From NCBI GenBank assembly GCA_026625185.1, contig CP113000.1:975622-1007621 (forward strand): DNA of 32,000 nucleotides. Reading direction: 5' to 3'. Made by a program: the position numbers and the translations under genes. This document shows, piece by piece, positions 9,203 to 32,000 of the stretch. Each line of letters begins with the position of its first letter. The stretch's first letter is position 1. The notes beneath the pieces were generated by a model. That model made no database searches and was not told the DNA's origin. It saw only the letters and a list, made by a program, of their open reading frames with translations. The stretch is from Thermodesulfobacteriota bacterium. GTDB lineage: Bacteria > Desulfobacterota > WTBG01 > JAGOGO01.

Positions 9203-9204
9203 AT

Positions 9205-9528
9205 CTATCTTTCTTCAGCTTCTGAAGCGAATGTCCGGGCCTCAATTTCAAAAGGTATTTCACGAAATGCAGTGGATAATTTTCTATATTTAATTAAATT
9301 CTTTATACCATAATAAATATAATGCATTAACACAATAACCGTACCGTATTTTTTAAATTGAGCAAGGTGCAGAAATTCATGTCTTGAAATTTTGCCTTTG
9401 TAACCCCGACAATATATTGATTTCCCAACCACGATGTATTCAATATTCATTTTCTGCGGGAACCAGTGCTTTTCTTTAACATTGAAGTCGACACCTTCTT
9501 TAAGGTAAATATTATATTTTGATTTCAT
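9205..9528 (-). CDS. small HExxH (zincin-like, DUF4157-like) protein
   Basis: 107 aa. VVGKSIYCRGYKGKISRHEFLHLAQF followed by EIEAR resembles the HExxHxxQ ... ExEA pattern of DUF4157-type minimal metallopeptidase domains. The start shares 1 nt with the upstream stop (TAATG). Confidence 0.4.
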   Translation of the reverse strand: MKSKYNIYLKEGVDFNVKEKHWFPQKMNIEYIVVGKSIYCRGYKGKISRHEFLHLAQFKKYGTVIVLMHYIYYGIKNLIKYRKLSTAFREIPFEIEARTFASEAEER

Positions 9529-11866: not shown

Positions 11867-11868
11867 GT

Positions 11869-13570: not shown

Positions 13571-13588
13571 ACGATTAAGTCTAAAAAT

Positions 13589-14536: not shown

Positions 14537-14549
14537 TATTTCCCGTTAT

Positions 14550-18767: not shown

Positions 18768-19040
18768 AAATCGCTCCCGTGAAACAGGTGTGTCTCATAC
18801 CCATTTTGCATCAAGGTCGTCAGTTAACTATTTGACAGAGTCCCCCTCGCTGGATATTGGCGGCAAAGTTCTCGGTTACCCTAATAATATATCTTCCCCA
18901 AAAATTACCACTGCCACCTCTGTATTTCAACGAAAATATTGTGCTCATCATTTACATCAAAAAATTTGCCGGTATGGTTACAGGGGCATTATTGAAAAGA
19001 TGGAGGCATTCTGTCTGTCGCTTTAATGCAAATTAATTAC

Positions 19041-19118
19041 TTAGTCATTTTCAGCAAATTTCTAGGTATTTTATATCATAAATACCACCTTTATTCTGCT
19101 TGCGCACAAAATCGCACC
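19041..19118. repeat. repeat A, copy 1 (~80 bp, near identical to 25389-25468)
   Basis: TTAGTCATTTTCAGCAAATTTCTAGGTATTTTATATCATAAATACCACCTTTATTCTGCTTGCGCACAAAATCGCACC. It differs from copy 2 by two substitutions and a 2-nt A-run length change, by eye. Confidence 0.9.
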
Positions 19119-19245
19119 ACCGTTAAAAAGAACTAGAAACCATGTTAATATGGCAACCCTTTTTTAACCGAAACATTCTTATATCCTTTCCTCCGCAAGA
19201 TTCCGGATAATTCTTCTTAACCTGAACTATCCAACGGTTAAACAG

Positions 19246-19261
19246 TGCAATGGCCGTGCCA
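19246..19261 (-). promoter_or_regulatory. sigma-54 (-24/-12) promoter, copy 1
   Basis: The minus strand reads TGGCACGGCCATTGCA, a perfect TGGCAC-N5-TTGC(A) element. Confidence 0.7.
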
Positions 19262-19278
19262 GGGCGCGGAGATATTTA

Positions 19279-19291
19279 TAACTAATTGATT
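19279..19291 (-). promoter_or_regulatory. IHF-like site, copy 1
   Basis: The minus strand reads AATCAATTAGTTA, which fits WATCAANNNNTTR. It lies 17 nt upstream of the -24 element. Confidence 0.35.
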
Positions 19292-19369
19292 ATTAATTAT
19301 TTTATGCAAAAACTCGAATTAGGCTTTGAAAAGGAGGGGAATTTTAATGTTCACAAAAAGCACTATGCT

Positions 19370-19386
19370 TATACAAAAAATGTATA
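19370..19386. promoter_or_regulatory. palindromic upstream activator site candidate, copy 1
   Basis: TATACA-AAAAA-TGTATA. Its centre lies about 119 bp upstream of the -24 GG. Confidence 0.55.
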
Positions 19387-19508
19387 GCTATGAGGTGTTT
19401 TCTGAAGGGAGTCGCCCGGTATTTTTAAGCAGGGTTCACGGGGCAGGGAAGACTGAGGAGGGCATACCAAAAGCAAAATGAGGATTTTTAGCTTTACCGC
19501 TTGCTCCC

Positions 19509-19960: not shown

Positions 19961-21082
19961 GTGGCAATCGAGGAATTAATACGGATTGGTGAAACTATAT
20001 ATAACAAATATATTGATGATTGGAAAAAAGAGGGGAAGAGAGTTATTGGGTACACTTGCAGTTATGCGCCTGAAGAGATCCTGCAAGCCGCCGGTCTTCT
20101 GCCTATTAGGCTCAAGGCCATTGGTTCCAGCGAAACCAGTAAGGCAGACGTGTATATGCCGAAATTCCACTGCACTTTTTCAAGGCATCTGTTGGATCAG
20201 GGCATGTCTAATGCCTTTGATTTTGTTGATGGGATTGTCTTTGTTAACTCATGCGACCAGCTAAGACGAATGTATGATGTGTGGAATAAGCTTGTAAAAT
20301 TTCCATATCAAACCATTATGGTCATGCCCTATTCCTACGATAAAGAGGATTTTGAATGGTACCTGGAGCACGAGGTTAAGAAGCTTAAGAGCGACCTGGA
20401 GACAGCTTATGGGGCAAAAATTACCGACAGCTCGTTAAGCGAGTCAATAAACATTTTCAACGAAACCAGAAACCTTCAGGCCAGATTGTATGAAATGAGA
20501 GGCGCAAAAGAACCCAGAATCAACGGGGTGGACACCCATAAGATCATCACGGCTGCAACCTCTATGCCCAAGAAAAAATACAACGAATTGCTGAAAGCGT
20601 CCCTCGAGGAGCTGAAAAAGAGGCCGGGTATTACAGATTACCGGGCCCGCATTCTCATCGGAGGAAGCATGATAGATGAGCCGGAATTACTGCAGGTTAT
20701 CGAGGATGCCGGGGGTCTTGTGGTTGCAGACGTGTTGTGCACCGGCACCAGATGGACCACGGATAAAGTGGAAACGGACGGTGACCCCCTTTACGCCATT
20801 GCCAAACGATATTACGATCATCAACCATGTCCAAGAATGACCATGGTTTACGAGCGAAAACGTGATTTTGTACTGGATCAGGCAAAGAAAAATCAGGTGG
20901 ATGGGGCTATCTTTTCCAAAATCGCCTTTTGTGATCATCATTCTGGAGACAATGTTCTTTACCAGGAGGATCTTGAGAAGGAGGGTATTCCATCTTTGCT
21001 GCTGGATAGAGATTACAGGATAACCGACGTGGGCCGATTCAGGACAAGAATCGAGGCCTTTTTTGAAAAACTTGGTAAATAA
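19961..21082 (+). CDS. BCR/HGD-family subunit, small HGD-D-type (BcrC/BzdN/HgdB-like)
   Basis: 373 aa. GYTCSYAPEEIL..AG..P, VNSCDQ, and the C-terminal DGAIFSKIAFCDHH block are typical of 2-hydroxyacyl-CoA dehydratase / benzoyl-CoA reductase core subunits. GTG start 7 nt after AAGGAGG. Confidence 0.75.
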   Translation: MAIEELIRIGETIYNKYIDDWKKEGKRVIGYTCSYAPEEILQAAGLLPIRLKAIGSSETSKADVYMPKFHCTFSRHLLDQGMSNAFDFVDGIVFVNSCDQLRRMYDVWNKLVKFPYQTIMVMPYSYDKEDFEWYLEHEVKKLKSDLETAYGAKITDSSLSESINIFNETRNLQARLYEMRGAKEPRINGVDTHKIITAATSMPKKKYNELLKASLEELKKRPGITDYRARILIGGSMIDEPELLQVIEDAGGLVVADVLCTGTRWTTDKVETDGDPLYAIAKRYYDHQPCPRMTMVYERKRDFVLDQAKKNQVDGAIFSKIAFCDHHSGDNVLYQEDLEKEGIPSLLLDRDYRITDVGRFRTRIEAFFEKLGK

Positions 21083-21096
21083 AAGGAGGGTCGGCT

Positions 21097-22518
21097 ATGA
21101 AACCGGTTCCTAAAGAGTTAGAAGGTATAGAGCTGTTTCAAAGGTATTTAACCACCTTTAACCTAATTAATATTGCTTTGACTAATTTCAAAACAGTCGA
21201 AGATCTTATGGCCGCGGCGCCGGAGATCTTAAAGACCCTGCCGGAATATGATGTCGGGGTTTTTCAGTCCCTTAGGCCGGATATTGTTATCGCGGCCTTC
21301 CATCCAAAAAACAGGAATGTGGTACTGAAATGTGCGCAGGCCCAAATAAAATTTTGGCAGGGCATAATAGATGACATCAAGGCAGACAAGCCGCAGTTGG
21401 ATTTTTGGTTTGCGCAAGGTCCGGAACTATTCCGCGCGCTGGGATTTTCCCCGCTATGCACTGAAACCACGTTGGTTGCCTCTGCAATTTATCAGGATGG
21501 ATGTGAAGATGCCACTGACTTATTCAGGTCTAAAGGATTTGCCGATCATATCTGCACCGCCAATGTGGCCTACCCCGGATATGTGATGAATGGCAACTGG
21601 AAGGTTCCCCATGTTATGGTAAAGCCCGGGACTCCCTGTCCTTCAAGCAACCTGGCCTACCAGGCCATAAAGAAATGGTATGGCAATGATTACATCATGT
21701 ATGACTCCACATACTATCTTGACGAAAAAGGCTTGGCCCATCAGACGGATGCCATTCGAAGGGCCATAGCCAAATTGGAGAAGATCTCGGGACAAAAGCT
21801 TGATGAAGCTGTCCTCAGGCAGCAGATGAAGGAAAGCAACCAAACCTACGCCCTTTGCGGTGAGCTTCTTGAGCTCAGGAAAAACAAGCCCAATCCTGAT
21901 CCGGGCATGCACCGTATCCTTGACCTGCTCATGATGGTCACACTTCTCGGAGAGCCTTCATGTACCGAATACTTTCAGCTTCTTGTGGACGAAGCGAAGG
22001 AAAGGGTGGCCAAAGGAGTGGGGGCAATCCCGGAGGGCAAAAAGGAGATCAGGGCGCTTCACACTTGGGCCCTTAACGCATATATGCCGGACCTTTATCA
22101 CTGGCTGGAGGAGACCTATGGGATGACTTACCTTACCTGTGGACTCTCCTATTTCGTTAACCATCAGGTGGATACCTCTTCGGCGGATTCCATGGTCGAG
22201 GGATGGGCCCAGAGGATTATGAACTTTACTATGGAAAGGCAGAGCATGAGCTTTGGTGATGTCTGGGTTGATGATATGTTTTATCTGGCAAAGAACTGGG
22301 ATGCTGACTGCGGCATATTCGCGGGAAACCTGTCATGCAAGCAGGGTTGGGCCATGAGTAAACTGCTGGGCGACCGACTGGAGGATGAACTTGGTATACC
22401 GTCGGTAAGATTTGAAATCGAATTGTGCGATAAACGCACCTGCCCCCCTGATGAGTTCAAGCACCGTATCGGGAGTTTTGTGGAAACCATTTTAACAAAC
22501 TCAAAAAAGAGAGTTTGA
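21097..22518 (+). CDS. BCR/HGD-family subunit, large HGD-D-type (BcrB/BzdO/HgdA-like)
   Basis: 473 aa. The C-terminal DADCGIFAGNLSCKQGW block and overall size fit the larger core subunit. AAGGAGG lies upstream of the ATG. Confidence 0.7.
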   Translation: MKPVPKELEGIELFQRYLTTFNLINIALTNFKTVEDLMAAAPEILKTLPEYDVGVFQSLRPDIVIAAFHPKNRNVVLKCAQAQIKFWQGIIDDIKADKPQLDFWFAQGPELFRALGFSPLCTETTLVASAIYQDGCEDATDLFRSKGFADHICTANVAYPGYVMNGNWKVPHVMVKPGTPCPSSNLAYQAIKKWYGNDYIMYDSTYYLDEKGLAHQTDAIRRAIAKLEKISGQKLDEAVLRQQMKESNQTYALCGELLELRKNKPNPDPGMHRILDLLMMVTLLGEPSCTEYFQLLVDEAKERVAKGVGAIPEGKKEIRALHTWALNAYMPDLYHWLEETYGMTYLTCGLSYFVNHQVDTSSADSMVEGWAQRIMNFTMERQSMSFGDVWVDDMFYLAKNWDADCGIFAGNLSCKQGWAMSKLLGDRLEDELGIPSVRFEIELCDKRTCPPDEFKHRIGSFVETILTNSKKRV

Positions 22519-22520
22519 CA

Positions 22521-23324
22521 ATGATAGTTGCAGGTATTGATGTCGGCTCCCTCACCGCTAAAGCGCTTATTATGAAGGACGGTGAGATTATTGATTTTGA
22601 TATTATCACTGTCAGACCAACACCCGTACAATCAGCAGGGGACGTGATGGAAAAGGCCCTGAACAAGACCGGGCTTAAGATGGATGACCTAGATTATTGC
22701 GTGAGCACCGGTTATGGACGGGAGCAGATATCATTTTCACGGAAAAGCATATCTGAAATCTCCTGTCATGGAATGGGGGCGCATTGGTGCAGACCCTCCA
22801 TAAGGGGCGTTATCGACATCGGGGGGCAAGACTGCAAGGCCATTATAGTGGATAAGGACGGGAATTTAGATAATTTCGCCATGAACGACAAATGCGCCGC
22901 CGGCACCGGAAGATTTCTGGAGATCATCTCCAAGGCCCTTGGCATTGACCTCGCCGAGCTGGGACCGTTGACCTTCAAATCAAATAATCCACTGAAAATT
23001 GTGAGGAGGTGCAGCGTTTTTGCCGAGTATGAGGTCATATTTTTACTCGCAGAAGGTAAGGATGTCACCGATATAGGCGCGGGGGTTAATGAAGCCATGG
23101 CCCAAAGAGCCTTTTCGCTGGCTAGCAGTATAAATCTTAATAACAAACTTACTGGTGAATTGACCGTGACGGGCGGTGTTGCAAAAAATGTCGGGGTCAT
23201 CAAAAACCTGGAAAAACTTTTTGATGCCGAAATTGTTAGTTTGCCACTGGACCCACAGATAATGGGCGCTTTGGGGGCTGCGCTGTTTGCTCGACGATAT
23301 TATGAGAAAGAGGTAAGAGTTTAA
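22521..23324 (+). CDS. BcrAD/BadFG-type ASKHA ATPase (electron-activating subunit 1)
   Basis: MIVAGIDVGSLTAK phosphate-1 motif. DKCAAGTGRFLE and RCSVFAEYEV carry the two Cys that bridge the inter-subunit [4Fe-4S] cluster in HgdC/BcrAD. I prefer the ATG at 22521 to the TTG at 22515 used in the ORF track. Confidence 0.85.
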   Translation: MIVAGIDVGSLTAKALIMKDGEIIDFDIITVRPTPVQSAGDVMEKALNKTGLKMDDLDYCVSTGYGREQISFSRKSISEISCHGMGAHWCRPSIRGVIDIGGQDCKAIIVDKDGNLDNFAMNDKCAAGTGRFLEIISKALGIDLAELGPLTFKSNNPLKIVRRCSVFAEYEVIFLLAEGKDVTDIGAGVNEAMAQRAFSLASSINLNNKLTGELTVTGGVAKNVGVIKNLEKLFDAEIVSLPLDPQIMGALGAALFARRYYEKEVRV

Positions 23325-24104
23325 ATGCATTTTTCCATTGGGATGGACATCGGACTGGTCGGTATCAAAGGGGTAGTCATGAAAGGCGAAAATATTGTTG
23401 CTCAGGTGGTAAAAGATACTGGGGTGAGACCTGCTTTGGCGGCCAAGGAATGTTATGAGCAATTACTCTCAGATGCGGATATAAGTTCAGACAAGATTCA
23501 AGCCCATGGGGTTAGCGGCTGGGGCTCAAAAACATTATCATTCGATTTCGATATAGAATACCTCCCTGATGTGGTCTGCCTTGCTAAAGGGGCAAAATGG
23601 GCCTGCCCGACTTCAAGAATGGTTGTTGACGTGGGGGCGCAGACAGCAAAAGTTGCTCGTTTTGATGGGAATGGGAGTGTAAAAAAATACGAGCTAAGTG
23701 ATAAATGCGCCTCAGGAACAGGAAGATTTCTGGAAATCATGTCGGCGGCTTTAGGATTGAAAGTAAACAATTTGGGGCAAATAGGACAAGCGGCGTCGAA
23801 ACTGGTGGAAATTTCATCCCAATGCAGCGTCTTTGCCGAAAGTGAAATCATAAGCTATGTAAATACCGGCGAGAAGACAGAAGATATTGTAAATGGCATT
23901 AACTATTCGATAGCGAAGAGGGTTTCAACCATCATTATGAGAGTGGGTATTCAAGAAGATATTATTATAACAGGTGGGGTGGCAAAAAATGATGCCGTTG
24001 TCAGATATATAGAGGAGATGGTCAAGGTTAGATTTAAAGATTACGGGGTAGACCCCCAAATGATTGGCGCCATAGGTGCGAGCTTAACTGCTCAGCAGAC
24101 ATGA
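23325..24104 (+). CDS. BcrAD/BadFG-type ASKHA ATPase (electron-activating subunit 2, distinct paralogue)
   Basis: IGMDIGLVGIKG, DKCASGTGRFLE and QCSVFAESEI. The ATG directly abuts the upstream TAA. Confidence 0.85.
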   Translation: MHFSIGMDIGLVGIKGVVMKGENIVAQVVKDTGVRPALAAKECYEQLLSDADISSDKIQAHGVSGWGSKTLSFDFDIEYLPDVVCLAKGAKWACPTSRMVVDVGAQTAKVARFDGNGSVKKYELSDKCASGTGRFLEIMSAALGLKVNNLGQIGQAASKLVEISSQCSVFAESEIISYVNTGEKTEDIVNGINYSIAKRVSTIIMRVGIQEDIIITGGVAKNDAVVRYIEEMVKVRFKDYGVDPQMIGAIGASLTAQQT

Positions 24105-24122
24105 AAAGGTTAGGAACCAGCT

Positions 24123-24935
24123 ATGCCAAAAATAATTGCCGTTAGCGGCAAAGGGGGTATAGGAAAATCCACCCTGGCTGCATTGATAACCAAGTTTTTT
24201 TCTGAAAACACGGATAAAAAGATTCTCCTGGTTGATGCTGACCCGTCTATTAGCCTGACCCTTATGCTCGGGATGGACCCGCTCAAAACACTGAGCAACT
24301 TGAGGGAAAAATTTGTCACCAGTGCGGAGGCTGCCCAGGAGGCCATGTTTGGAGATAAACACATCCGTGATACTATTTATGATGAGTGTTTGCAGAACGG
24401 TGGAAGGTTTAACTTGCTTGCCATGGGCAGGCCTGAAGGACCGGGATGTTTCTGTTCAGTCAATGAGTTATTAAGATATGGGATCGAAAGTGTTTCAAAG
24501 AATTTTGACATAACCATCATCGATTGTGAAGCAGGCCCTGAACAGGTTAACCGGAGAGTGACCAAGAGTATTGACGATTTAATACTCGTAATCGAACCAA
24601 CCGTCAGAAGCGTTCAAACAGCATTATATATCAAGAAGGTGGCTGAAACTTATGGTGTTCAAAAGTCGTTTAGTTTGCACATTATTTTAAATAAAATAGG
24701 GAAACATGACAGAACAAAAAACATAAAGTCAATTTTAAGTAGCGAAGGGATAAAAATTTCAGGAATAGTACCTTTGGATGAAAATATAGCTGAATATGAC
24801 TCCATTGGAAAATCTATACTTGATCTTTCTCATGAATCACCCAGCGTGAAAGCTGTTGGAGAAATCTTCACATTCCTGTATCTCCAGAAAGAGGTCAATT
24901 TTGTCCGTGAGAGAGAGTTAGACCAGCAGATATAA
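24123..24935 (+). CDS. CooC-like MinD/ParA-type P-loop ATPase (metallocentre maturation factor family)
   Basis: AVSGKGGIGKST deviant Walker A, LLVDADPSISL, and a C-x-C motif (GPGCFCSVN) as in CooC-type nickel/cluster insertion ATPases. Confidence 0.6.
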   Translation: MPKIIAVSGKGGIGKSTLAALITKFFSENTDKKILLVDADPSISLTLMLGMDPLKTLSNLREKFVTSAEAAQEAMFGDKHIRDTIYDECLQNGGRFNLLAMGRPEGPGCFCSVNELLRYGIESVSKNFDITIIDCEAGPEQVNRRVTKSIDDLILVIEPTVRSVQTALYIKKVAETYGVQKSFSLHIILNKIGKHDRTKNIKSILSSEGIKISGIVPLDENIAEYDSIGKSILDLSHESPSVKAVGEIFTFLYLQKEVNFVRERELDQQI

Positions 24936-25096: not shown

Positions 25097-25388
25097 ATAA
25101 TACCAAATCAATCCGATTTTCAAAAGAGTTGTCTTTGAAATCCTTACTTACTTTGTCAAAATAAACCCAGCGACCGCGATAATTCCGTTCGTTATTGGGC
25201 GTGGCTACGGGACTGGGCTACGGGACGTACATGAAAATATGAATTGATATTGTGATAAGACCGGGGGAAGAAGGGGCGTCCATTAAATTATAAAATTTCT
25301 AACAACGGCGACTTATGCGTACCAACATAAACACTGTTTTTGCATGAAATAATAATATAATGGAAAAAAAATGAATTAGAAAAATTTG

Positions 25389-25468
25389 TTAGTCATTCTC
25401 AGCAAATTTCTAAGTATTTTATATCATAAATACCACCTTTATTCTGCTTGCGCACAAAAAATCGCACC
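25389..25468. repeat. repeat A, copy 2
   Basis: TTAGTCATTCTCAGCAAATTTCTAAGTATTTTATATCATAAATACCACCTTTATTCTGCTTGCGCACAAAAAATCGCACC, 52 nt beyond the stop of the last lipoprotein gene. Confidence 0.9.
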
Positions 25469-25520: not shown

Positions 25521-26855
25521 CTAATAAACTAAACTTATCCACCTCGCAACAATCCCTTGCTTGGTTGGCCAAACCGCAAGGACATCACACCTCCCGCTAC
25601 TACCGATCTGTATCAAATTCCATGGCCCACCCAACCAATGATCAGCAACATTAGTTTCTCCCAAATCTACCGGAGCAGACCAAACCCGACTAAAAAATTC
25701 CAAAAAAAGAACATGGTTTTTGTTACTAAAATTACCCCCCTCTGGGTTTCCGATTACCAAAGCATGAAAGTTATCGTCGCCAGCCGGAGATAGCTTGGGT
25801 TCCCAATAGGTTCGAAGTGGGAATTTGATAGTTCCATTCTGCACGTTATCTTTTAATAAGTAACTCTCGCGATCATGACCACGCAGGATAAGCGCATTGC
25901 CTGTTTCTGGATCTACCGCAAGAGTGCTTTGCGACATATCCTTGGGGTAATCTTGCGAGAATTGAAATTTTTTTCCGGTTACCTTACGGAGCGATCTTGA
26001 TCCCTTAAAAGCACTTAATTTTGCCGGATCCGCCAAGGTATCAGGTGGACCGACAGTTGTTTTGAAACTTACATATCTAGATTGAGAATCCTTTGCTATT
26101 ATTGTGCAAATTGAGTCGTAAATGAGGGTGACAGTGCCTTTTGCATCAGCAGCAAGGTGTATATTATCTATCGATTTCTTATCATTTGGATCAACGACAG
26201 TCCAGGTTGTGTAGATAGGATGGTTTTCAGAAACTACCATTAGTTTGTGCGCTCGTGTTGGCCACGGCCAAATGATGCCACCCCCGTAACCACCAAGTCC
26301 ATACAAATCCAGACGCCAAGGAGCTCCAACTTCATTTCCTTTAACCTCAAAGGCCCATATCAACCCTTTAGCGCCTTTCACGAAAGACGGATTAAACGCC
26401 TCAACCCCTATCTCTTTCCAAGGGGTGCGCTCAACTTTTCGCCAGATACCGTCCTTATAAATCAGATGCTCATTATCTATTAGCACATGAAGATGCCCTT
26501 CGCAATCAAACGTTACATCAAAAGCCGAGGGCAAAGCGGAAGTCCTTATGATCTCGCTCTTCGTGACGCTGTCAGGGCCAACAACGAAGTGGTGAATTTC
26601 CTTTAATTCAGTTGAAACGATAACAACGTGGGCTTGGCCGCTGCTATCAAAAATTACCCGGGCGCTATCGCCATGCGCTGTTTTTGTCCTCAGGAGTTCG
26701 ATAACTGGACCTGAACGAATGTTCGGCAGCACATATTTCGCAGGTAATTTTTTTTCAGATGTGATCGCGCATCCGTTGATTAAAAGGCTTGCGACAAATA
26801 GGACAAGTAGAATATCCGTTTGAAGGCATTTAAAACGCTTGCAATTAAAAACCAT
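25521..26855 (-). CDS. predicted lipoprotein, probably beta-propeller-like, unknown function
   Basis: Signal peptide ending LLINGC|A. Recurring strand-like blocks (AHVVIVS, HLHVLID, VTLIYD, FHALVIG, CDVLAVW) suggest repeated blades. Strong SD (AAGAGGAGGAAG) upstream. Confidence 0.6.
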   Translation of the reverse strand: MVFNCKRFKCLQTDILLVLFVASLLINGCAITSEKKLPAKYVLPNIRSGPVIELLRTKTAHGDSARVIFDSSGQAHVVIVSTELKEIHHFVVGPDSVTKSEIIRTSALPSAFDVTFDCEGHLHVLIDNEHLIYKDGIWRKVERTPWKEIGVEAFNPSFVKGAKGLIWAFEVKGNEVGAPWRLDLYGLGGYGGGIIWPWPTRAHKLMVVSENHPIYTTWTVVDPNDKKSIDNIHLAADAKGTVTLIYDSICTIIAKDSQSRYVSFKTTVGPPDTLADPAKLSAFKGSRSLRKVTGKKFQFSQDYPKDMSQSTLAVDPETGNALILRGHDRESYLLKDNVQNGTIKFPLRTYWEPKLSPAGDDNFHALVIGNPEGGNFSNKNHVLFLEFFSRVWSAPVDLGETNVADHWLGGPWNLIQIGSSGRCDVLAVWPTKQGIVARWISLVY

Positions 26856-27043
26856 CGCTGCAATCTTCCTCCTCTTAAATGATCTTTTGATCTTTTCACA
26901 TTAAACTGCCACGCCGATTTACTTCACTGAAACCCGACCTCGATTCAGGTTTCTTTTATTCGATAAACCCTGCACCAGCCCTCATTTATAGCCCCACAGC
27001 AATCATTGTCACCCTCGACTTTCAAGTCTTTATTATAGGCCTT

Positions 27044-27439
27044 TCATTGATTGGTTTCCTGACATTCACAAACCGCTTTATCAATGCGGCTATGGAAGAT
27101 TTGATAAGCCCTATGATATTCGGTTACTGAACCTGAATCTGTGTCAGCAACTTCGGCCCATACCGGATACCTCGAATGTTTCGCGCCAGAAGGGATTCCA
27201 TACCAACCCGTGGGGATTGCAACTCCTACAAAATAACCATTGTTCTGCTTTTCCAGAATTACTGGAACTTTGCCTGACATTCCGCTCTGTTCCCATTCTT
27301 TCGCAATGCATGAAGCGACAGCATGAGATGAATGCACACTTTTGAAATTCTGTGTGGCACAACCGCATATCAAAATAAATACAAGCATCAAAGTCAATCC
27401 ACAAATTATTTTTATTTTCCTTTTTATTAAGTTTGACAT
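27044..27439 (-). CDS. small predicted lipoprotein, unknown function
   Basis: 131 aa. MSNLIKRKIK..LMLVFILICGC|ATQNF is a signal peptide plus lipobox-like Cys. Confidence 0.6.
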   Translation of the reverse strand: MSNLIKRKIKIICGLTLMLVFILICGCATQNFKSVHSSHAVASCIAKEWEQSGMSGKVPVILEKQNNGYFVGVAIPTGWYGIPSGAKHSRYPVWAEVADTDSGSVTEYHRAYQIFHSRIDKAVCECQETNQ

Positions 27440-27480
27440 TTTATTTTTCTGCCTTCATACGGAGAGGAGTTCCAATGCGC

Positions 27481-28881
27481 TCACTTGGTTTCTAAAAGCA
27501 CCTTTCTATTCTCCGACCATGGGGCTTTCTCCTTCACCACTTCATTAAAAAATCTTTGCATTGAAGCTTGAATTGCTTTCGATATTTCCGCTTTAAATAA
27601 TTTCCTTCCGTTAACGCCTTGATATTCTTCCATCGTTCGACTCGTGGAACCTTCTCCGACCTTCGCCTCATAAAATAAGGGCTCTTTTCTATTCTTGGGA
27701 TTGGCATAATATGAAACCACATCATACACTAAGGCTTTGGGCGCGGTTTCCCAAAGGCGTATGCGCAAAGTTACTGCCACGCAAAAAGAACCGCGCTCTT
27801 TACATTCACTCAGTTCTATATTCAGGATTTCTGTTTGAACAATACTTTTTAGGCCCTGTTGGTTCGCCTGCGCAAAGGGATCATTTTCAGTGTTTAAGTC
27901 AATCGGCTTTGATATGCAATATTTGGAAAGCATGCTTTCAAAACCAGATCCGAGCATTGCGGCAGGGTCATTTTCCTTGAGCTCCTGCTGAAGTCCCTGG
28001 ATGGTTGGCTGCCATTTATGCTCAGCGATTTCGCCGGCAATTGTCCCCCCGGTAATTCCCACAGGAAGATACGTTAAGTATAAAAGAAGAATACCTGCTC
28101 CGGCTTCACGTCCCGCACTTAAGGTTGAAAGACCATTGGCTACATCTTCTCCACTTTCAATCCCAGTAGCACGCGAGATGGCTCTTTTTTTCCAATGCGG
28201 GGACATCAGGTTTTTGGTGCTGGTGGTCATGAAGCCCATGGGAACAAGTTCTTTTATGCACCGGGTATTAATTGGCTTCCCCATTGGTTTCATATGCGCT
28301 AATGATGGAGAACCGTATTGACTGAACGAATCTTGGGCAATAGCCTGTGCTGATTCACTCTCATCAATTACCCTAATTCCGGAGCACTCATTTACCAGTC
28401 GCCCAAAAATCCCCCAGGTGGTTCGGCAGGAAGCAGCAAGGGTACCGATATAGAGCACGTGGTTACCACGTGGAACATGAAACCAAAATACTTCAGGAGC
28501 TGACAGATACCGATCATCCTTCGATGAAATTGCTTCCCGTTTTGGGGAAACGCCAAGATAATAGGTGCCCGGCTGAAGAATAAAATATACCCAGCCGTTT
28601 TTTTGAGCTTGGTGGGATGGAGAATGATAAGGGAAAATACCTGTTGGAGATTGGTCAGCATCAATACTTGCCATTAGTGAGTAAAATCTTTCCGGCCCTT
28701 GCAATTTTTTAGAATCAATTTCCGCAGAAAGCCGGAGCAAAACTACTGATTTTCCTCCTCCGGCAACCGCCTTCTCATCACCTGCATTCGGATTACGCAC
28801 AACAGTCGCGCAGCCGTTAAGAAGCATGGCAAGAAAAACTAATAATACGATCATCAAGGAGAATACATTTAATTTTGACAT
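27481..28881 (-). CDS. predicted lipoprotein, family X paralogue 2 (466 aa), unknown function
   Basis: Signal peptide ..FLAMLLNGC|ATVV. Full-length paralogue of 29913-31316. Conserved Cys pairs and a Gly-rich hydrophobic segment (YLPVGITGGTIAGEIAEHKWQP). Confidence 0.65.
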   Translation of the reverse strand: MSKLNVFSLMIVLLVFLAMLLNGCATVVRNPNAGDEKAVAGGGKSVVLLRLSAEIDSKKLQGPERFYSLMASIDADQSPTGIFPYHSPSHQAQKNGWVYFILQPGTYYLGVSPKREAISSKDDRYLSAPEVFWFHVPRGNHVLYIGTLAASCRTTWGIFGRLVNECSGIRVIDESESAQAIAQDSFSQYGSPSLAHMKPMGKPINTRCIKELVPMGFMTTSTKNLMSPHWKKRAISRATGIESGEDVANGLSTLSAGREAGAGILLLYLTYLPVGITGGTIAGEIAEHKWQPTIQGLQQELKENDPAAMLGSGFESMLSKYCISKPIDLNTENDPFAQANQQGLKSIVQTEILNIELSECKERGSFCVAVTLRIRLWETAPKALVYDVVSYYANPKNRKEPLFYEAKVGEGSTSRTMEEYQGVNGRKLFKAEISKAIQASMQRFFNEVVKEKAPWSENRKVLLETK

Positions 28882-28961
28882 TTTTTTTACCTCCTTTCAT
28901 TTGATTTCAGAAACCAGTGGTAAAAAAAGCAATGGCCGTCCTCCGTTTACTCTCCAGGCTT

Positions 28962-29678
28962 TTACCGGTACTGCCACGAAGGTACTTTTTTCTCGTCCGG
29001 GGTCAAACCGGTCAATTTTTTAAGGATCTCCTTGGTGAGTTTCAGACCCGCCTCTGATTGTGTCTGAGGGATAAACAATAGATGTGCCATGTACGCCAGA
29101 CCCACAAACTCCCCCTTTGACGAAGTTGTTATTGTTCCAATGCTTTTTCCTGACGGTGCTTCCCATATGGTTGCTTCCAGGGTTGTTTGGTTGCCGCACG
29201 CAGCCGCACCAAAGGGAACAAGATATAACGGTACGTGTATTGTGGTTTCAACTTTTTCATTGATGAAAATAATGTATCGCAGATGCTCCTGTTTTGCCTT
29301 TGCTTCTGATATGCTCAATTCCGCCAAAACCGGTTCGCTGAATTTTATGGTCGGCCCTGGTTCCTGTAATTCGCCCAATGTCTTTATGTCGAACTGATCG
29401 GGCGCTGGATTTAGCACCACCATATACTTGATTACTTGCCCGACGGTATCATCCTGAAAATCAGGCATGCCTCCCATGGTAAAATAGGGCTCGCCGAAAC
29501 GTGCGGGACAGGGTGCGTTGTTTCCGCAGATAAGGATCGTCTCGCCTTTTTCTATCAGCGCAACCCGAGAAAGTTTGTCATTAATGGTTTCGATGGAGGG
29601 AGATGGTAAAGGCAGACACCCGCAGATAAGATTCAGGTACAGAATCAAAAAAATATACCCACAGTAATATGATCTCAT
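28962..29678 (-). CDS. predicted lipoprotein, unknown function
   Basis: Start moved to MRSYYCGYIFLILYLNLICGC (ATG at 29678), which has TAAGGAG 7 nt upstream. The track start at 29708 would overlap the truncated paralogue ORF. Confidence 0.55.
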   Translation of the reverse strand: MRSYYCGYIFLILYLNLICGCLPLPSPSIETINDKLSRVALIEKGETILICGNNAPCPARFGEPYFTMGGMPDFQDDTVGQVIKYMVVLNPAPDQFDIKTLGELQEPGPTIKFSEPVLAELSISEAKAKQEHLRYIIFINEKVETTIHVPLYLVPFGAAACGNQTTLEATIWEAPSGKSIGTITTSSKGEFVGLAYMAHLLFIPQTQSEAGLKLTKEILKKLTGLTPDEKKVPSWQYR

Positions 29679-29692
29679 ATGATTACTCCTTA

Positions 29693-29836
29693 TTAATTCT
29701 TGATGCACGAAGCGACAACATCAGATGAACGCGAACTTTTGAAATTCTGGGTGGCACAACCGGATATCAATAGAAAGACAATAGTCAAAACTATTTCAAG
29801 TGCCCCTTTGATCTGTCTTTTTATAAACCGTGACAT
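29693..29836 (-). pseudogene. truncated copy (47 codons) of the small lipoprotein gene at 27044-27439
   Basis: MSRFIKRQIKGALEIVLTIVFLLISGCATQNFKSSRSSDVVASCIKN* aligns with the first ~47 residues of MSNLIKRKIKIICGLTLMLVFILICGCATQNFKSVHSSHAVASCIAKEW... The flanking DNA (29837-29912 versus 27440-27520) is also homologous. Confidence 0.55.
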
Positions 29837-29912
29837 TTTATTTTTCCTTTTTTCATACGCCGAGGAGTTTTAATGAGCTCACTTGTTTCTAAAGCCTTTT
29901 TTTATTCTTAGC

Positions 29913-31316
29913 TCACCGAGAGTTCTCCTTCAGTACATCATTAAAAATTTTTTGAACTGAAAGTTGAATTGCTTTTGACAGTTCATCTTTTAAAAATTTT
30001 CTTCCTTCGGGGCCGCAATAGTCCTCCATTTTCCGGCATTCGGAACATCCTCCCCCCACCTCAGTTACAAAAAATACTGGTTTTTCTCTAATGGCTTTGT
30101 TGGAATATTGTGATACCGAATCATAGAGCAAGTTTTTTGACGCTGTCTCCCAAACTCGAGAACGCATGTTTACCACAATACAAAAACAACCCCGTTCTTT
30201 ACATTCACTCAGTTCTATATTCAGGAAATTCGCCTCGAAGATGCTTTTAAGCCCCAGTTGCTTTGCCCGGACAAAAGGGTCATCCGCCTCCTTCAGGTTA
30301 ATTGGCGCAGTTGCGTCATATTGGGAAAGCGAAGTTTTAAAAGCAGAACTGAGCATCGCGGCGGGGTCGTTTTCCTGCAGTTCCTGCTGAAGGCCTTGGA
30401 TGGCGGGTTGCCATTTGTGCTCAGAGACTTCTCCGGCAATTACACCGCCGGTGAATGCTACAGGCAAATAATATACTGAATATAAAATTGCAACCGGCGG
30501 GGCTGACAGATTAAGAAATGCACTGAGGTATGGATGGTCATTCACGAATTGAGAAGAACCATCGCGCTTAAAACTCAACTTCTCTAATCCTATTCCCATC
30601 CCCATTGCGCTGATAATGTTCCTCCTTTTCCAATTTGGTGAATTCAACTCTTGAGTGCTGGTGGTCGTGTATCCCATGGGGACAAGTTCACCCATCGTCC
30701 GGGTGGTTCTTGGTCTGCTAAGTGGTTTCATGATGACCGATGACAGTGAACCGTATTGCCTGAAAGAAGCCCGGGCAATAACTTTGGCTGATTCAGTCTG
30801 GTCAATGACCTTTATCTCAGAACACTGATCTACCTGCCGGCTAATCAATCCTCTTGTGGTTTCGCATGCAGTACTTAGGGTTCCGATATAAATAACCTTA
30901 TTACCCTGGGGAACTGAAAACCAAAAACTGTCGGGGGTAAAATAATGAGAGTTCTTCAAGGTATCAACTTTCGGGCTGACCTCAAGATAATAGGTGCCCG
31001 GCTCAAGCATAAAATACACCCACCCATCTTTTCGGGCTTCTGCTGAGGGAAAATCGTAAAAATTAAGATTATTCGTTGAAGAATAAAGGTTGTCACAGGT
31101 TGCTATTACCCAGTAAAATCTTCCCGACCCCTCATTTTTTTGAGAATCAATCTTCGCGGAACACCTAAACAAAACCACGGATTTTCTCTTTTCTTGAGTG
31201 ACCTCCTTAACGTTTATACCCAGGTTTGATCCAGGAGTTGCGCAGCCAAAAAGAAACATTAAAAAAGCATTCAAAGTGATAAAAGCAATTGGTCTTAACC
31301 CTGACATTTTTTTCAT
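29913..31316 (-). CDS. predicted lipoprotein, family X paralogue 1 (467 aa), unknown function
   Basis: Signal peptide ..FLMFLFGC|ATPG. Shares long identical peptide blocks with 27481-28881 (EHKWQP.IQGLQQEL.ENDPAAML, LNIELSECKERG.FC). AAAGGAG upstream. First gene after the sigma-54 promoter. Confidence 0.65.
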   Translation of the reverse strand: MKKMSGLRPIAFITLNAFLMFLFGCATPGSNLGINVKEVTQEKRKSVVLFRCSAKIDSQKNEGSGRFYWVIATCDNLYSSTNNLNFYDFPSAEARKDGWVYFMLEPGTYYLEVSPKVDTLKNSHYFTPDSFWFSVPQGNKVIYIGTLSTACETTRGLISRQVDQCSEIKVIDQTESAKVIARASFRQYGSLSSVIMKPLSRPRTTRTMGELVPMGYTTTSTQELNSPNWKRRNIISAMGMGIGLEKLSFKRDGSSQFVNDHPYLSAFLNLSAPPVAILYSVYYLPVAFTGGVIAGEVSEHKWQPAIQGLQQELQENDPAAMLSSAFKTSLSQYDATAPINLKEADDPFVRAKQLGLKSIFEANFLNIELSECKERGCFCIVVNMRSRVWETASKNLLYDSVSQYSNKAIREKPVFFVTEVGGGCSECRKMEDYCGPEGRKFLKDELSKAIQLSVQKIFNDVLKENSR

Positions 31317-31380
31317 CTCCTTTCACTCTCAAAGTTTCGGATAGTTATTTTTAACTTGAGCTACCCAATGATCGAATAAA

Positions 31381-31395
31381 GCAATTGATGTGCCA
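31381..31395 (-). promoter_or_regulatory. sigma-54 (-24/-12) promoter, copy 2
   Basis: The minus strand reads TGGCACATCAATTGC(T), a perfect TGGCAC-N5-TTGC. The predicted transcription start is near 31370, giving a ~54-nt leader to the ATG at 31316. Confidence 0.75.
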
Positions 31396-31412
31396 GGGCA
31401 CGAAGATGTTGC

Positions 31413-31425
31413 TAACTTAATGATT
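31413..31425 (-). promoter_or_regulatory. IHF-like site, copy 2
   Basis: The minus strand reads AATCATTAAGTTA, one mismatch to WATCAANNNNTTR. It has the same 17-nt offset from the -24 element as copy 1. Confidence 0.3.
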
Positions 31426-31503
31426 TTGAATAAGATTATGACAAAACCCGGATCAGACTTTGAAAAGGAAGGGGGGTTTAAGGTTCATGCAATGCACTAC
31501 ATC

Positions 31504-31520
31504 TATACAAATTTTGTATA
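31504..31520. promoter_or_regulatory. palindromic upstream activator site candidate, copy 2
   Basis: TATACA-AATTT-TGTATA, a perfect 17-bp palindrome. Its centre lies about 119 bp upstream of the -24 GG, the same spacing as copy 1. Confidence 0.55.
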
Positions 31521-31575
31521 GCACTGAGGTGTCTTCTGGAGGGAGTCGTTCGGAATGTTCCGCATGTTCACGGAA

Positions 31576-32000
31576 CTAGAAATCGGAGGCCAGTGACCTG
31601 AGCTTAAGCATGCGGAGAAGCCAGTGGGCTCCAAAGGCAGCAAACAAATGTTTGAGTGTATGACCGCTCAATATTCCACCGAAAGCGTAGAGAAAGCTAT
31701 CAAAATGCTCTGCCAGTTTTGCCGCGAGGTAAGCCAGCAGCACGACATATAAATCTCTGCTTCGGGTGTAGGGTGACTTATAGGTAATAATAATGAACGG
31801 GATGAGCAGCATGGGCAAAAACTGCACCAGCGCGTAGGGTCTCAAATCGCCTGCCCCTGATTGTTCCGACCAATGCCAATAAAGCACGCTGCCACAACCC
31901 AAGACTATCAGGGGCCATAGCATCACCCTGCCTAATTTTTCGTGCAGATGTTCAGTGATAATCACGCTGAAAAACGCCATAAACGAAAGGGCCATGGGCA
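31576..32000 (-). CDS. polytopic membrane protein, ceramidase-like (partial, 5' end beyond the window)
   Basis: C-terminal ~140 aa with DLRPYALVQFLPMLLIP and SGHTLKHLFAA blocks, which I associate with the bacterial alkaline-ceramidase-like family. Recognised by eye. The frame runs open to the window edge. Confidence 0.4.
   Translation of the reverse strand, partial: PMALSFMAFFSVIITEHLHEKLGRVMLWPLIVLGCGSVLYWHWSEQSGAGDLRPYALVQFLPMLLIPFIIITYKSPYTRSRDLYVVLLAYLAAKLAEHFDSFLYAFGGILSGHTLKHLFAAFGAHWLLRMLKLRSLASDF

What the first reader, a model, noticed from the sequence alone, without database searches (positions are those of the whole stretch)
25521..31316. Sigma-54-controlled operon of five lipoproteins with no recognisable function
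Seen: five same-strand ORFs plus one truncated copy, each beginning with a basic N-terminus, a hydrophobic stretch and a Cys in a lipobox-like context (LFGC, ICGC, LNGC, ICGC, INGC), four of them followed by A-T/I. None shows an enzymatic motif I recognise.
- The two ~466-aa paralogues share conserved Cys pairs, which suggests disulfides and therefore a periplasmic location.
- They also share a beta-rich N-terminal part (GWVYF.L.PGTYYL.VSPK ... FWF.VP.GN.V.YIGTL) and an unusual Gly-rich hydrophobic segment followed by EHKWQP.IQGLQQEL.ENDPAAML.
- The 444-aa protein looks like a beta-propeller.

Inference: this is a coordinated set of envelope lipoproteins, possibly an outer-membrane or periplasmic assembly. 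It shares its regulatory module with the specialised-lipid operon, which suggests a role in handling, transporting or organising that lipid, or in an envelope remodelling programme.
Basis: partly seen in the sequence, partly recalled or inferred. Interest (0 to 1): 0.65.

Follow-up and report, generated by a model that had tools for sequence, protein, structure and literature searches.

The report
Sigma-54 operon of uncharacterised envelope lipoproteins
This is a real gene cluster, probably switched on by sigma-54, that encodes five membrane-anchored lipoproteins of unknown function built around a protein family that has not been described, whose predicted shape resembles lipoproteins that sit under the outer membrane in export and lipid-transport machines.

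Summary
On the minus strand, 31316..25521 carries five lipoprotein genes and a 47-aa truncated copy of the 131-aa gene.

- **Promoter:** an exact sigma-54 -24/-12 site and a palindrome 117 nt upstream precede the first gene. The promoter core and the right half of the palindrome are invariant in seven related upstream regions.
- **Sequence searches:** no gene matches Pfam, NCBIfam, PADLOC or PHROGs.
- **The 466-aa family:** it is undescribed but not tiny, with 501 representative clusters, all unnamed or "hypothetical".
- **Structure:** an AlphaFold2 model (pLDDT 90.6) shows an N-terminal beta-sandwich, a helical pair with a conserved small-xxx-small motif, and a C-terminal alpha/beta region. 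Its best PDB matches are PelC, LptE-like proteins, CsgG and FlgT, at fold level only.
- **Accessory genes:** they vary between related loci, while their signal peptides are conserved by position.
- **The "shared regulatory module":** the copy before the lipid operon is the remnant of a second lipoprotein operon (promoter, about 60 nt of gene start, 3' tail).
- **Link to lipid metabolism:** suggestive only. Ceramidase-like and lipase-like genes lie nearby, and distant family members sit beside PlsA/Ger-type ether-lipid genes.
- **The 444-aa protein:** the beta-propeller idea is untested.

Verdict: a real, moderately interesting new lipoprotein family whose function is unproven.

The parts
31504..31520 (-). 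Palindrome TATACAaattt/TGTATA, a candidate binding site for the enhancer-binding protein. Its centre lies 117 nt upstream of the TGGCAC element.
   Evidence: 2 copies in the window against 0.07 expected. The TGTATA half is invariant in 7 aligned upstream regions.
31380..31395 (-). Sigma-54 -24/-12 promoter, TGGCACatcaaTTGCT.
   Evidence: an exact consensus match, 2 in the window against 0.04 expected. CTGGCAC...ATTGC is invariant in 7 related upstream regions.
31317..31379 (-). Conserved 5' untranslated region containing a 9-bp hairpin (GGRTAGYTC...GARYTATCC) and a ribosome-binding site.
   Evidence: Only 4 sequences are available and covariation is weak.
29913..31316 (-). A467, a lipoprotein of the 466-aa family (paralogue 1). 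The likely start is the ATG at 31307.
29693..29836 (-). D', a 47-aa truncated copy of D131 that keeps the signal peptide, the lipobox and 18 further residues.
28962..29678 (-). B238 (listed as B248 from an upstream GTG), a lipoprotein with 16 homologues and no known family.
27481..28881 (-). C466, a lipoprotein of the 466-aa family (paralogue 2). This is the protein that was modelled.
27044..27439 (-). D131, a small lipoprotein with the N-terminus 'MSxLIKxKIK', which is typical of the gene that follows a 466-family gene.
25521..26855 (-). E444, a lipoprotein with only two homologues found. Its fold is undetermined.
25383..25468 (-). 3' tail of the operon, repeated at 93-95% identity at 19035-19118.
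   Evidence: Folding shows no significant structure (z = -0.58).
19035..19425 (-). 'Ghost' copy of the operon ends. It holds a palindrome (19370-19386), a sigma-54 promoter (19261..19246), about 60 nt of a decayed 466-type gene start, and the 3' tail. It ends 268 nt upstream of the lipid operon's first ATG (18767).
31576..31995 (-). 3' part of the upstream ceramidase-like (PF05875) membrane-protein gene, cut by the window end. It belongs to a separate sigma-54 unit seen in full in L002.

Best explanation
This is a sigma-54 and enhancer-dependent operon encoding envelope lipoproteins.

**Core.** The core is an undescribed protein family, present here as two paralogues (A467 and C466). Its predicted parts, in order, are:
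- a lipid-anchored N-terminus;
- a prealbumin-like beta-sandwich;
- a helical pair whose first helix carries a conserved Pro and a small-xxx-small-xxx-small (glycine-zipper-like) motif;
- a C-terminal alpha/beta region of the class seen in PelC, LptE and PqiC.

**Most likely mode of action.** The 466-aa proteins sit at the periplasmic face of a membrane, probably the outer membrane. There they act as a scaffold, possibly an oligomer, on which the exchangeable accessory lipoproteins (B238, D131, E444) assemble.

**Regulation.** The same palindrome-plus-promoter module precedes two further units. One holds a B12 radical-SAM enzyme, a lipase-like protein and a ceramidase-like protein. The other is a remnant directly upstream of a phospholipid-type biosynthesis operon. 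The lipoproteins are therefore probably one arm of a sigma-54-driven programme that remodels the envelope or its lipids.

**Shown:** the genes, the lipoboxes, the promoter and its conservation, the size of the family, the confidence of the fold, and the variability of the accessory genes.
**Inferred:** outer-membrane location, oligomeric scaffold, and any role with lipids.
For: **Genes and lipoboxes.**. Purifying selection: dN/dS about 0.2.

**Promoter.**
- The exact consensus and the palindrome each occur twice in the window, against 0.04 and 0.07 expected by chance. Both pairs have the same 117-nt spacing.
- The promoter core and the TGTATA half of the palindrome are invariant across 7 upstream regions from at least 3 organisms.
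- A distant family member, L010, also has TGGCAT-N5-TTGCA 48 nt before its ATG, and a different palindrome about 115 nt upstream.

**Family.** 13 close relatives. The exhaustive profile search finds 501 representative clusters at E<=1e-3 and 117 at E<=1e-30. None of 75 members matches Pfam.

**Structure.**
- The AlphaFold2 model has pLDDT 90.6 and pTM 0.87.
- Foldseek against PDB finds PelC (E 6.6e-4, probability 1.0, TM 0.48), Cj1090c (TM 0.57), CC_3750 (TM 0.52), CsgG, FlgT, an LptDEM chain, GNA1162 and LpoB. It also finds beta-sandwich proteins such as PA1324; CBM41 and transthyretin matched only the earlier, lower-confidence model.
- PelC, LptE and PqiC are reported as structural homologues, and PelC and PqiC form rings at the outer membrane (PMC10897342; PMC12141448 abstract).

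**Conserved residues.** [G/A]275, 279 and 283 are kept in 66-69 of 75 sequences, P273 and W290 in 62 of 75, and seven Cys columns are conserved. Glycine-zipper outer-membrane lipoproteins (SlyB, YfgH) that stabilise the outer membrane are a precedent (abstracts).

**Neighbourhood.**
- Further lipoprotein genes accompany the family in about 8 of 13 contexts.
- Lipid-related neighbours are: ceramidase-like and lipase-like genes, UbiA, and PlsA/Ger-type genes beside distant members in L008 and L017.
Against: - Fold matches are weak: TM scores normalised by the length of the matched PDB chain are 0.45-0.57 and sequence identity is 7-14%. This alpha/beta class is common among periplasmic lipoproteins with very different jobs.
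- The tool does not report which residues of the query aligned. Assigning the PelC-like match to the C-terminal part rests on the model's secondary structure.
- No partner of known systems (PelB, LptD, MCE/PqiAB, CsgEF) is in the window.
- The internal hydrophobic helix only just reaches a transmembrane threshold (Kyte-Doolittle 1.63-1.68). It may simply be buried in the protein core.
- Distant family members lie among unrelated genes, for example nitroreductase and RsmE, EamA, or ribosomal-protein genes.
- The window's HGD-D/BcrAD cluster is a bzd-type benzoyl-CoA-reductase-like enzyme, not Ger.
- No enhancer-binding-protein gene is in the window.
- B238's family also occurs in another string of lipoprotein genes, on a 5.8-kb contig that carries no 466-family gene.
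- B238, D131 and E444 were not modelled.
Confidence: 0.4

Rival explanations
1. This is a lineage-specific, fast-shuffling island of lipoprotein genes with no functional tie to lipid metabolism, for example surface or periplasmic binding or adhesion proteins. On this view the adjacency to lipid genes, and the promoter copy before the lipid operon, are by-products of local duplication and deletion.
For: - Accessory genes differ in every related locus. Only the signal peptides are conserved: D131 against the L004 261-aa protein is 69% identical over residues 1-29 only, and E444 against the L004 136-aa protein is 67% identical over residues 1-30 only.
- The window itself shows a truncated D' and a ghost operon.
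- B238 homologues sit in another lipoprotein string next to SSB, SWIM and transposase genes.
- In 8 of 13 family contexts no lipid-related gene was recognised among the neighbours.
Against: - The same enhancer-promoter module also precedes the unit holding the radical-SAM, lipase-like and ceramidase-like genes.
- The ceramidase-like gene is again upstream of 466-family genes on an independent contig.
- Two differently arranged loci put distant family members beside PlsA/Ger-type genes, which are rare in genomes.
Confidence: 0.3
2. The 466-aa proteins are inner-membrane proteins that span the membrane once. The N-terminal lipid anchor and beta-sandwich face the periplasm, the Gly-rich helix crosses the membrane, and the C-terminal domain is cytoplasmic. 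They would act as sensors or regulators.
For: - An internal 19-residue window reaches the Kyte-Doolittle threshold of 1.6 in both paralogues.
- Basic residues (KKRAISR) precede the helix.
- Short-form paralogues lacking the beta-sandwich exist.
Against: - The hydrophobicity is borderline. The family mean is 1.18.
- The region after the helix keeps conserved Cys columns (293, 360, 367, 414, 421), and the model's closest solved structures include periplasmic lipoproteins.
- The helix is modelled with pLDDT 96-98. Whether it is packed against the rest of the protein could not be checked, because the model coordinates were not readable.
Confidence: 0.08
3. The operon is cargo of a mobile or defence island, or is auxiliary to the adjacent benzoyl-CoA-reductase-like genes, for example in uptake of aromatic substrates.
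For: - RhuM and DpnII-like genes lie a few kb upstream in L002.
- The bzd-type reductase cluster ends about 590 nt from the operon's end, in convergent orientation.
- A B238 homologue lies near a transposase.
Against: - No PADLOC or PHROGs matches.
- No integrase or transposase is in the window.
- Bzd-like genes are absent from every other related locus inspected.
- The orientation is convergent, so the two clusters do not form one operon.
Confidence: 0.07

Closest known systems
PelC (the outer-membrane lipoprotein ring of the Pel exopolysaccharide exporter PelBC)
   Same: It is a lipoprotein and the best structural match to the model (9h80_A, E 6.6e-4, probability 1.0, TM 0.48). Its alpha/beta domain sits at the periplasmic face of the outer membrane.
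   Different: Sequence identity is about 10% and there is no profile match. PelC has about 150 residues and one domain, whereas this family adds a beta-sandwich and a long helical pair. No pelB or other pel gene is nearby. Ring formation is untested.
LptE and PqiC (outer-membrane lipoproteins of the LPS and phospholipid transport systems)
   Same: They share PelC's structural class (PMC10897342). LptE-type hits are Cj1090c (TM 0.57), which I identify as LptE-like from memory only, and an LptDEM chain (9kn3_B). They serve lipid or glycolipid transport, which fits the lipid-gene neighbourhood here.
   Different: PqiC itself was not among the top 50 hits. No LptD, MCE or PqiAB partner is in the window. 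There is no sequence membership in those families.
SlyB and YfgH (glycine-zipper outer-membrane lipoproteins)
   Same: They are lipoproteins carrying a hydrophobic GxxxGxxxG helix and are implicated in stabilising outer-membrane lipids and proteins under stress (abstracts). The same motif is conserved in this family.
   Different: No Pfam Gly-zipper match at E<=1. Here the motif lies in the middle of a 466-aa multidomain protein, and its hydrophobicity is only borderline.
CsgG and FlgT (ring-forming envelope lipoproteins)
   Same: They give weaker Foldseek hits to the same model.
   Different: TM scores are 0.2-0.35 with large rmsd. No curli or flagellar genes are nearby.
BamE/SmpA_OmlA-type small lipoproteins
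   Same: Small lipoproteins of this kind follow 466-family genes in L010 (BamE at E 2e-4, below the Pfam cut-off). Weakly related small lipoproteins follow them in L004, L013 and L015.
   Different: The window's own accessory proteins (B238, D131, E444) show no such similarity.

Membership tests
Bacterial lipoproteins (Lgt/LspA substrates) | A basic N-terminal region, a hydrophobic region, and a lipobox ending in Cys within about 35 residues (PROSITE PS51257). | tested here: met
   The rule is met by A467, B248/B238, D131 and D'. C466 and E444 deviate only by Asn at -2, and their Cys is conserved in relatives (71 of 75; 3 of 3).
Bacterial lipoproteins (Lgt/LspA substrates) | Actual lipidation and signal peptidase II cleavage. 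| not testable with these tools
   Needs palmitate labelling or globomycin sensitivity.
Sigma-54-dependent promoter | -24 GG and -12 GC elements with fixed spacing (TGGCAC-N5-TTGCW), placed just upstream of the gene. | tested here: met
   an exact match at 31395..31380, 2 in the window against 0.04 expected. It lies 64 nt before the first ATG.
Sigma-54-dependent promoter | An upstream activator site about 80-150 nt away, conserved in orthologous loci. | tested here: met
   the palindrome TATACA-N5-TGTATA lies 117 nt upstream in both window copies, and its TGTATA half is invariant in 7 aligned regions.
Sigma-54-dependent promoter | rpoN and a cognate enhancer-binding protein present, and transcription dependent on them. 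| not testable with these tools
   No Sigma54_activat gene was found among the window's ORFs of 100 aa or more. The rest of the genome is not available.
PelC / LptE / PqiC-type outer-membrane lipoproteins | Sequence membership, that is, a profile match to those families. | tested here: not met
   no Pfam or NCBIfam match for the window proteins, and no Pfam match for any of 75 family members; no PDB sequence match.
PelC / LptE / PqiC-type outer-membrane lipoproteins | The same alpha/beta fold. | tested here: inconclusive
   E 6.6e-4, probability 1.0, but TM only 0.45-0.57 and rmsd 4-6 A. The aligned query region is not reported.
PelC / LptE / PqiC-type outer-membrane lipoproteins | A ring oligomer, and a partner transporter (PelB, LptD or PqiAB) encoded nearby. 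| tested here: not met
   No such partner gene is in the window or in the related loci inspected. Oligomerisation itself is not testable here.
Glycine-zipper lipoproteins (SlyB-like) | A Pfam Gly-zipper domain match. | tested here: not met
   (E<=1): none.
Glycine-zipper lipoproteins (SlyB-like) | A GxxxGxxxG motif in a hydrophobic helix. | tested here: met
   [G/A] at positions 275, 279 and 283 in 66-69 of 75 sequences. The helix is modelled with pLDDT 96-98.
Beta-propeller (E444) | Repeated blades detectable by sequence, profile or structure. | tested here: inconclusive
   one weak internal repeat (residues 52-79 against 100-126, E 0.009); no PDB or Pfam hit.
PlsA/Ger ether-lipid reductase (neighbouring genes) | The architecture BcrAD_BadFG x2 + DUF2229 + HGD-D (PMC13159169). 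| tested here: not met
   The window cluster at 19961-24104 has separate HGD-D and BcrAD subunits, no DUF2229, and no BLAST match of its HGD subunits to the Ger-like genes. IMG names it a bzd-type benzoyl-CoA reductase. The architecture is met in full by the gene next to the family member in L008; for the gene next to the family member in L017 only BcrAD_BadFG and DUF2229 are on record, not HGD-D.

The most novel reading that the evidence does not exclude
The 466-aa family would be the outer-membrane end of a so-far unknown system that receives or organises unusual (ether or otherwise modified) lipids in the envelope of anaerobes. It would be a ring-forming lipoprotein cap analogous to PqiC or LptE, with a glycine-zipper helix dipping into the inner leaflet. 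It would be co-induced through one sigma-54 enhancer with the enzymes that make or trim those lipids, and equipped with exchangeable accessory lipoproteins.
Probability: 0.12. Interest if true: 0.75.

Novelty: new variant of a known kind. Interest (0 to 1): 0.42.

Why it matters
How modified membrane lipids, including ether lipids, reach and are organised in the outer membrane of anaerobic bacteria is unknown. This locus offers three things:

- **A defined, confidently foldable protein family.** It has about 500 clusters and no Pfam or NCBIfam entry. It combines a lipid anchor, a glycine-zipper-like helix and a region of the class used by known outer-membrane export and lipid-transport lipoproteins.
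- **A clear regulatory handle.** A conserved enhancer and sigma-54 promoter is shared with lipid-modifying genes.
- **Evidence on how such loci evolve.** Whole mature domains are swapped behind conserved signal peptides, and a ghost operon has been left in front of a lipid operon.

If the lipid link is wrong, this remains an ordinary, lineage-restricted lipoprotein island.

Tried and rejected
**Searches that found nothing**
- Pfam, NCBIfam, PADLOC and PHROGs scans of all five proteins.
- PDB sequence searches with profiles of the 466, E444 and B238 families.
- Profile-profile comparison of B238, D131 and E444 against the 466 family. Only the signal peptides align.
- Rfam scan of the window.
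- The operon's 3' tail as a structured RNA or terminator: z = -0.58, and no terminator-like site.

**Searches with limited yield**
- Genome scans of the GTDB species representatives. The close-family patterns found nothing. Two broader alignments were too diverse to use. A third found one Nitrospiraceae MAG. Co-occurrence with the lipid operon could therefore not be profiled across genomes.
- Self-alignment of E444 for propeller blades gave only one weak repeat.

**Ideas considered and rejected**
- That the window's HGD-D/BcrAD cluster is a PlsA/Ger ether-lipid reductase.
- That the operon is defence or phage cargo.

**Limits**
- Source names could not identify the organism, because names for the window's own proteins are hidden.
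- Both structure-prediction jobs went to C466, so B238, D131 and E444 have no models.
- Model coordinates were not readable, so packing of the Gly-rich helix could not be inspected.

Full report
**1. What is there**

The finding's interval holds a same-strand gene string on the minus strand:
- A467, 31316..29913;
- a 47-aa ORF, D', 29836..29693;
- B248, 29708..28962;
- C466, 28881..27481;
- D131, 27439..27044;
- E444, 26855..25521.

A467 and C466 are 50% identical. D' matches the first 45 residues of D131 at 62% identity and then stops. Repeat families spaced 2397-2432 nt apart show that a [466-aa + 131-aa] unit was duplicated in tandem. In the upstream copy, the B gene now occupies the place of the rest of the 131-aa gene.

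B248's real start is the ATG at 29678, giving 238 aa. That version has a ribosome-binding site and is identical in length and sequence to database protein P0210. A467 more likely starts at the second ATG (31307, 464 aa), which is better spaced from the ribosome-binding site and matches P0007.

Intergenic gaps are 14-188 nt. No convincing terminator lies between the genes; the three minus-strand terminator-like patterns fall inside the A467 coding sequence.

**2. Lipoproteins**

Every product starts with Lys/Arg residues, a hydrophobic stretch and a Cys in a lipobox. The PROSITE PS51257 rule is met by A467, B238, D131 and D'. C466 and E444 miss it only because of Asn at -2. That Cys is conserved in 71 of 75 aligned family members and in all three E444-type proteins.

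None has Asp after the Cys. Under the E. coli sorting rule that would mean outer-membrane targeting. This is my own knowledge, and the rule is not known to hold in this organism.

The genes are under purifying selection, with dN/dS about 0.2 for C466 and for B238 against their orthologues.

**3. Sigma-54 control**

An exact TGGCAC-N5-TTGCW lies at 31395..31380, 64 nt before the first ATG. The window has two exact sites where shuffles give 0.04. A perfect palindrome, TATACA-N5-TGTATA, also occurs exactly twice against 0.07 expected. Each copy is centred 117 nt upstream of one of the two promoters.

I aligned seven upstream regions:
- the two window copies;
- four metagenomic loci with 466-family genes (L012-L015);
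- the region before a B12 radical-SAM gene in L002, which is the same locus extended beyond the window.

In this alignment the CTGGCAC...ATTGC core and the TGTATA half-site are invariant, while the flanks drift. A family member at only 34% identity (L010) also has TGGCAT-N5-TTGCA 48 nt before its ATG, and a different palindrome about 115 nt upstream.

This is strong comparative support for a sigma-54, enhancer-dependent promoter. No enhancer-binding-protein gene is in the window. Dependence on sigma-54 remains unproven experimentally.

**4. The "shared module" before the lipid operon**

Region 19176-19425 is 73% identical over 250 nt to 31310-31559. Region 19035-19118 is 93-95% identical to the operon's 3' tail at 25383-25468. 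The roughly 60 nt between the two pieces is homologous to the first codons of 466-family genes in L014 and L015, but is no longer an intact gene.

So 19035-19425 is a collapsed copy of a whole lipoprotein operon: enhancer, promoter, gene start and tail, with the coding content deleted. It ends 268 nt before the first gene of the phospholipid-type operon, whose products are:
- a PlsC-like acyltransferase;
- a PEP-synthase-like phosphotransferase;
- a methyltransferase;
- a YegS-like lipid kinase;
- a CdsA-like protein;
- a thioester-reductase-like SDR;
- a radical SAM/SPASM enzyme;
- a PssA-like transferase.

No minus-strand terminator was detected in between. Read-through is therefore possible, but this is inference. 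Its origin differs from what was assumed.

**5. The 466-aa family**

The word-indexed search found only 13 proteins. The exhaustive profile search found 501 representative clusters at E<=1e-3 and 117 at E<=1e-30. All named members are "hypothetical protein". They include MAGs of Gemmatimonadota, Alphaproteobacteria and Nitrospiraceae. None of 75 members matches Pfam, and a profile search finds nothing in PDB sequences.

With a 75-sequence alignment, AlphaFold2 gives pLDDT 90.6 and pTM 0.87. The model's layout is:
- residues 45-172, a beta-sandwich;
- a mixed linker;
- a 44-residue helix (261-304) followed by a second helix (306-321);
- residues 335-448, a four-stranded sheet with helices.

Foldseek against PDB gives PelC first (E 6.6e-4, probability 1.0, TM 0.48). 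It is followed by Cj1090c (TM 0.57), CC_3750 (TM 0.52), the flagellar LPHT ring and FlgT, CsgG, an LptDEM chain, GNA1162 and LpoB. All-beta hits (PA1324, and CBM41 and transthyretin with the earlier lower-confidence model) can only correspond to the N-terminal sandwich. PelC, LptE and PqiC are described as structural homologues of one another, and PelC and PqiC form rings under the outer membrane (PMC10897342; PMC12141448).

The similarity is at fold level only. Identity is 7-14% and no partner transporter genes are present.

P273, W290 and [G/A] at 275, 279 and 283 are conserved in 62-69 of 75 sequences, which makes a glycine-zipper-like face. Its hydrophobicity is borderline for a membrane span. 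I could not inspect the coordinates. A membrane-dipping helix, as in the SlyB and YfgH lipoproteins, and a buried packing helix both remain possible.

Seven Cys columns besides the lipobox are conserved. The window's paralogues have lost some of them.

Short-form paralogues lacking the sandwich exist.

**6. The accessory genes**

B238 has 16 homologues at 43-80% identity. On L021 it sits in another string of lipoprotein genes, on a 5.8-kb contig that carries no 466-family gene, next to SSB, SWIM and transposase genes. E444 has two homologues. Neither these two nor D131 shows profile, PDB or internal-repeat evidence for a fold, so the beta-propeller idea is untested.

In related loci the genes after the 466-family gene encode different mature proteins but keep the signal peptide:
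- the N-terminus "MSxLIKxKhK" heads at least four unrelated mature sequences, and in five of its seven occurrences in the fetched loci it heads the gene right after a 466-family gene (in two, on L012, the preceding gene is not visible);
- E444's signal peptide heads an unrelated 136-aa protein in L004.

One relative has an M48 peptidase gene between two paralogues. Others carry BamE-like small lipoproteins. The locus is thus a constant core with exchangeable accessories, and D' is a visible scar of such an exchange.

**7. Link to lipids**

*In favour*
- The gene immediately upstream is ceramidase-like (PF05875). It is preceded by a lipase-like hydrolase and a B12 radical-SAM enzyme under a third copy of the promoter module.
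- A ceramidase-like gene again precedes 466-family genes on an independent contig.
- UbiA and B12 radical-SAM genes precede them in L014 and L015.
- Distant members sit beside PlsA/Ger-type genes in two differently arranged loci, L008 and L017. The Ger architecture is taken from PMC13159169.

*Against*
- L008 and L017 come from related organisms, so they count as about one lineage.
- The window's own HGD-D/BcrAD cluster is bzd-type and not Ger.
- Eight of 13 contexts show no recognised lipid-related gene among the neighbours.
- Genome-wide profiling was not possible.

**8. Verdict**

The most likely reading (confidence about 0.4) is a sigma-54-dependent set of envelope lipoproteins built around a new family that acts as a membrane-anchored periplasmic scaffold, co-regulated with lipid-modifying enzymes. 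The main rival (0.3) is a fast-shuffling lipoprotein island with no tie to lipids.

In novelty terms this is a new variant of a known kind: an undescribed family and architecture made of known folds and known regulation. Interest is moderate.

Noticed in passing
window 19035-19425 (minus strand): A ghost operon: enhancer palindrome, exact sigma-54 promoter and about 60 nt of a decayed 466-type gene start, fused to a 93-95% identical copy of the operon's 3' tail. It lies 268 nt upstream of the phospholipid-type operon, and no terminator was detected in between.
   Followed up: yes
window 27439.. and 29836.. (minus strand); L004 2376 and 3181; L012 60; L013 2284; L015 4281: Signal peptides are conserved by gene position while the mature proteins are unrelated. 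The 'MSxLIKxKhK' type heads at least four different mature sequences, and E444's signal peptide heads an unrelated 136-aa protein. This suggests cassette-like exchange with breakpoints just after the lipobox.
   Followed up: partly
window 25383-25468 and 19035-19118: An 84-86-nt element is repeated at 93-95% identity, far better conserved than the 73%-identical promoter module next to it. It has no Rfam match and no significant fold. Its function is unknown.
   Followed up: partly
L002 2656-2671 (outside the window, upstream of the ceramidase-like gene): A third exact sigma-54 promoter, with a half-conserved palindrome, precedes a unit of B12 radical-SAM, lipase-like (Palm_thioest/DUF676/PGAP1-type) and ceramidase-like genes. 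This implies a small regulon.
   Followed up: partly
window 31317-31379 and 19178-19245; L014 1367-1438; L015 3176-3247: The conserved 5' untranslated region contains a 9-bp hairpin (GGRTAGYTC / GARYTATCC). L012 and L013 lack about 21 nt from another part of this 5' region. Too few sequences are available to assess covariation.
   Followed up: partly
L008 2842-7408; L017 2754-11425: Distant 466-family members (27-33% identity) lie beside PlsA/Ger-type ether-lipid reductase genes (BcrAD x2 + DUF2229 + HGD-D in L008; only BcrAD and DUF2229 are on record for the L017 gene) in two different gene orders. In L017 the gene is split by a frameshift and is followed by two lipoprotein genes and a WG-repeat protein.
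   Followed up: partly
L010 70-215: A 34%-identical family member has its own sigma-54-type promoter (TGGCATatctgTTGCA) and a different palindrome (AGATACactGTATCT) about 115 nt upstream. It is followed by three BamE-like small lipoproteins.
   Followed up: partly
contig of P0003/P0004 (no DNA held): Gene order here is ceramidase-like, 450-aa family member, Peptidase_M48 (441 aa), 448-aa family member. A protease occupies the position that B238 holds in the window.
   Followed up: no
window 8624-18767 (minus strand): A ten-gene phospholipid-type operon contains two proteins with no family match (261 aa at 14550-15335, 107 aa at 9205-9528), a 900-aa PEP-synthase/rifampicin-phosphotransferase-like enzyme and a radical SAM/SPASM enzyme. 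Its lipid product is unknown. All NCBIfam hits are below the curated cut-offs.
   Followed up: partly
window 19961-24935 (plus strand): A four-subunit bzd-type benzoyl-CoA-reductase-like or 2-hydroxyacyl-CoA-dehydratase-like cluster (HGD-D x2, BcrAD x2) with a CbiA/ParA-type NTPase. It is divergent from the ghost promoter and convergent with the lipoprotein operon.
   Followed up: partly
L001 9272-14653; L020 9350-14520: In Nitrospiraceae-type contigs the family member lies in a conserved run of nitroreductase, family member, RsmE and PHP genes. A sigma-54 activator gene lies about 2 kb downstream and nif genes lie upstream. No sigma-54 consensus was found directly upstream of the gene.
   Followed up: partly
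L004 64-879; L014 1436-2299; L015 3245-4177; L016: Short-form paralogues of the 466-aa family keep the signal peptide and the C-terminal helical and alpha/beta part but lack the beta-sandwich, which shows that the two halves are separable modules.
   Followed up: no
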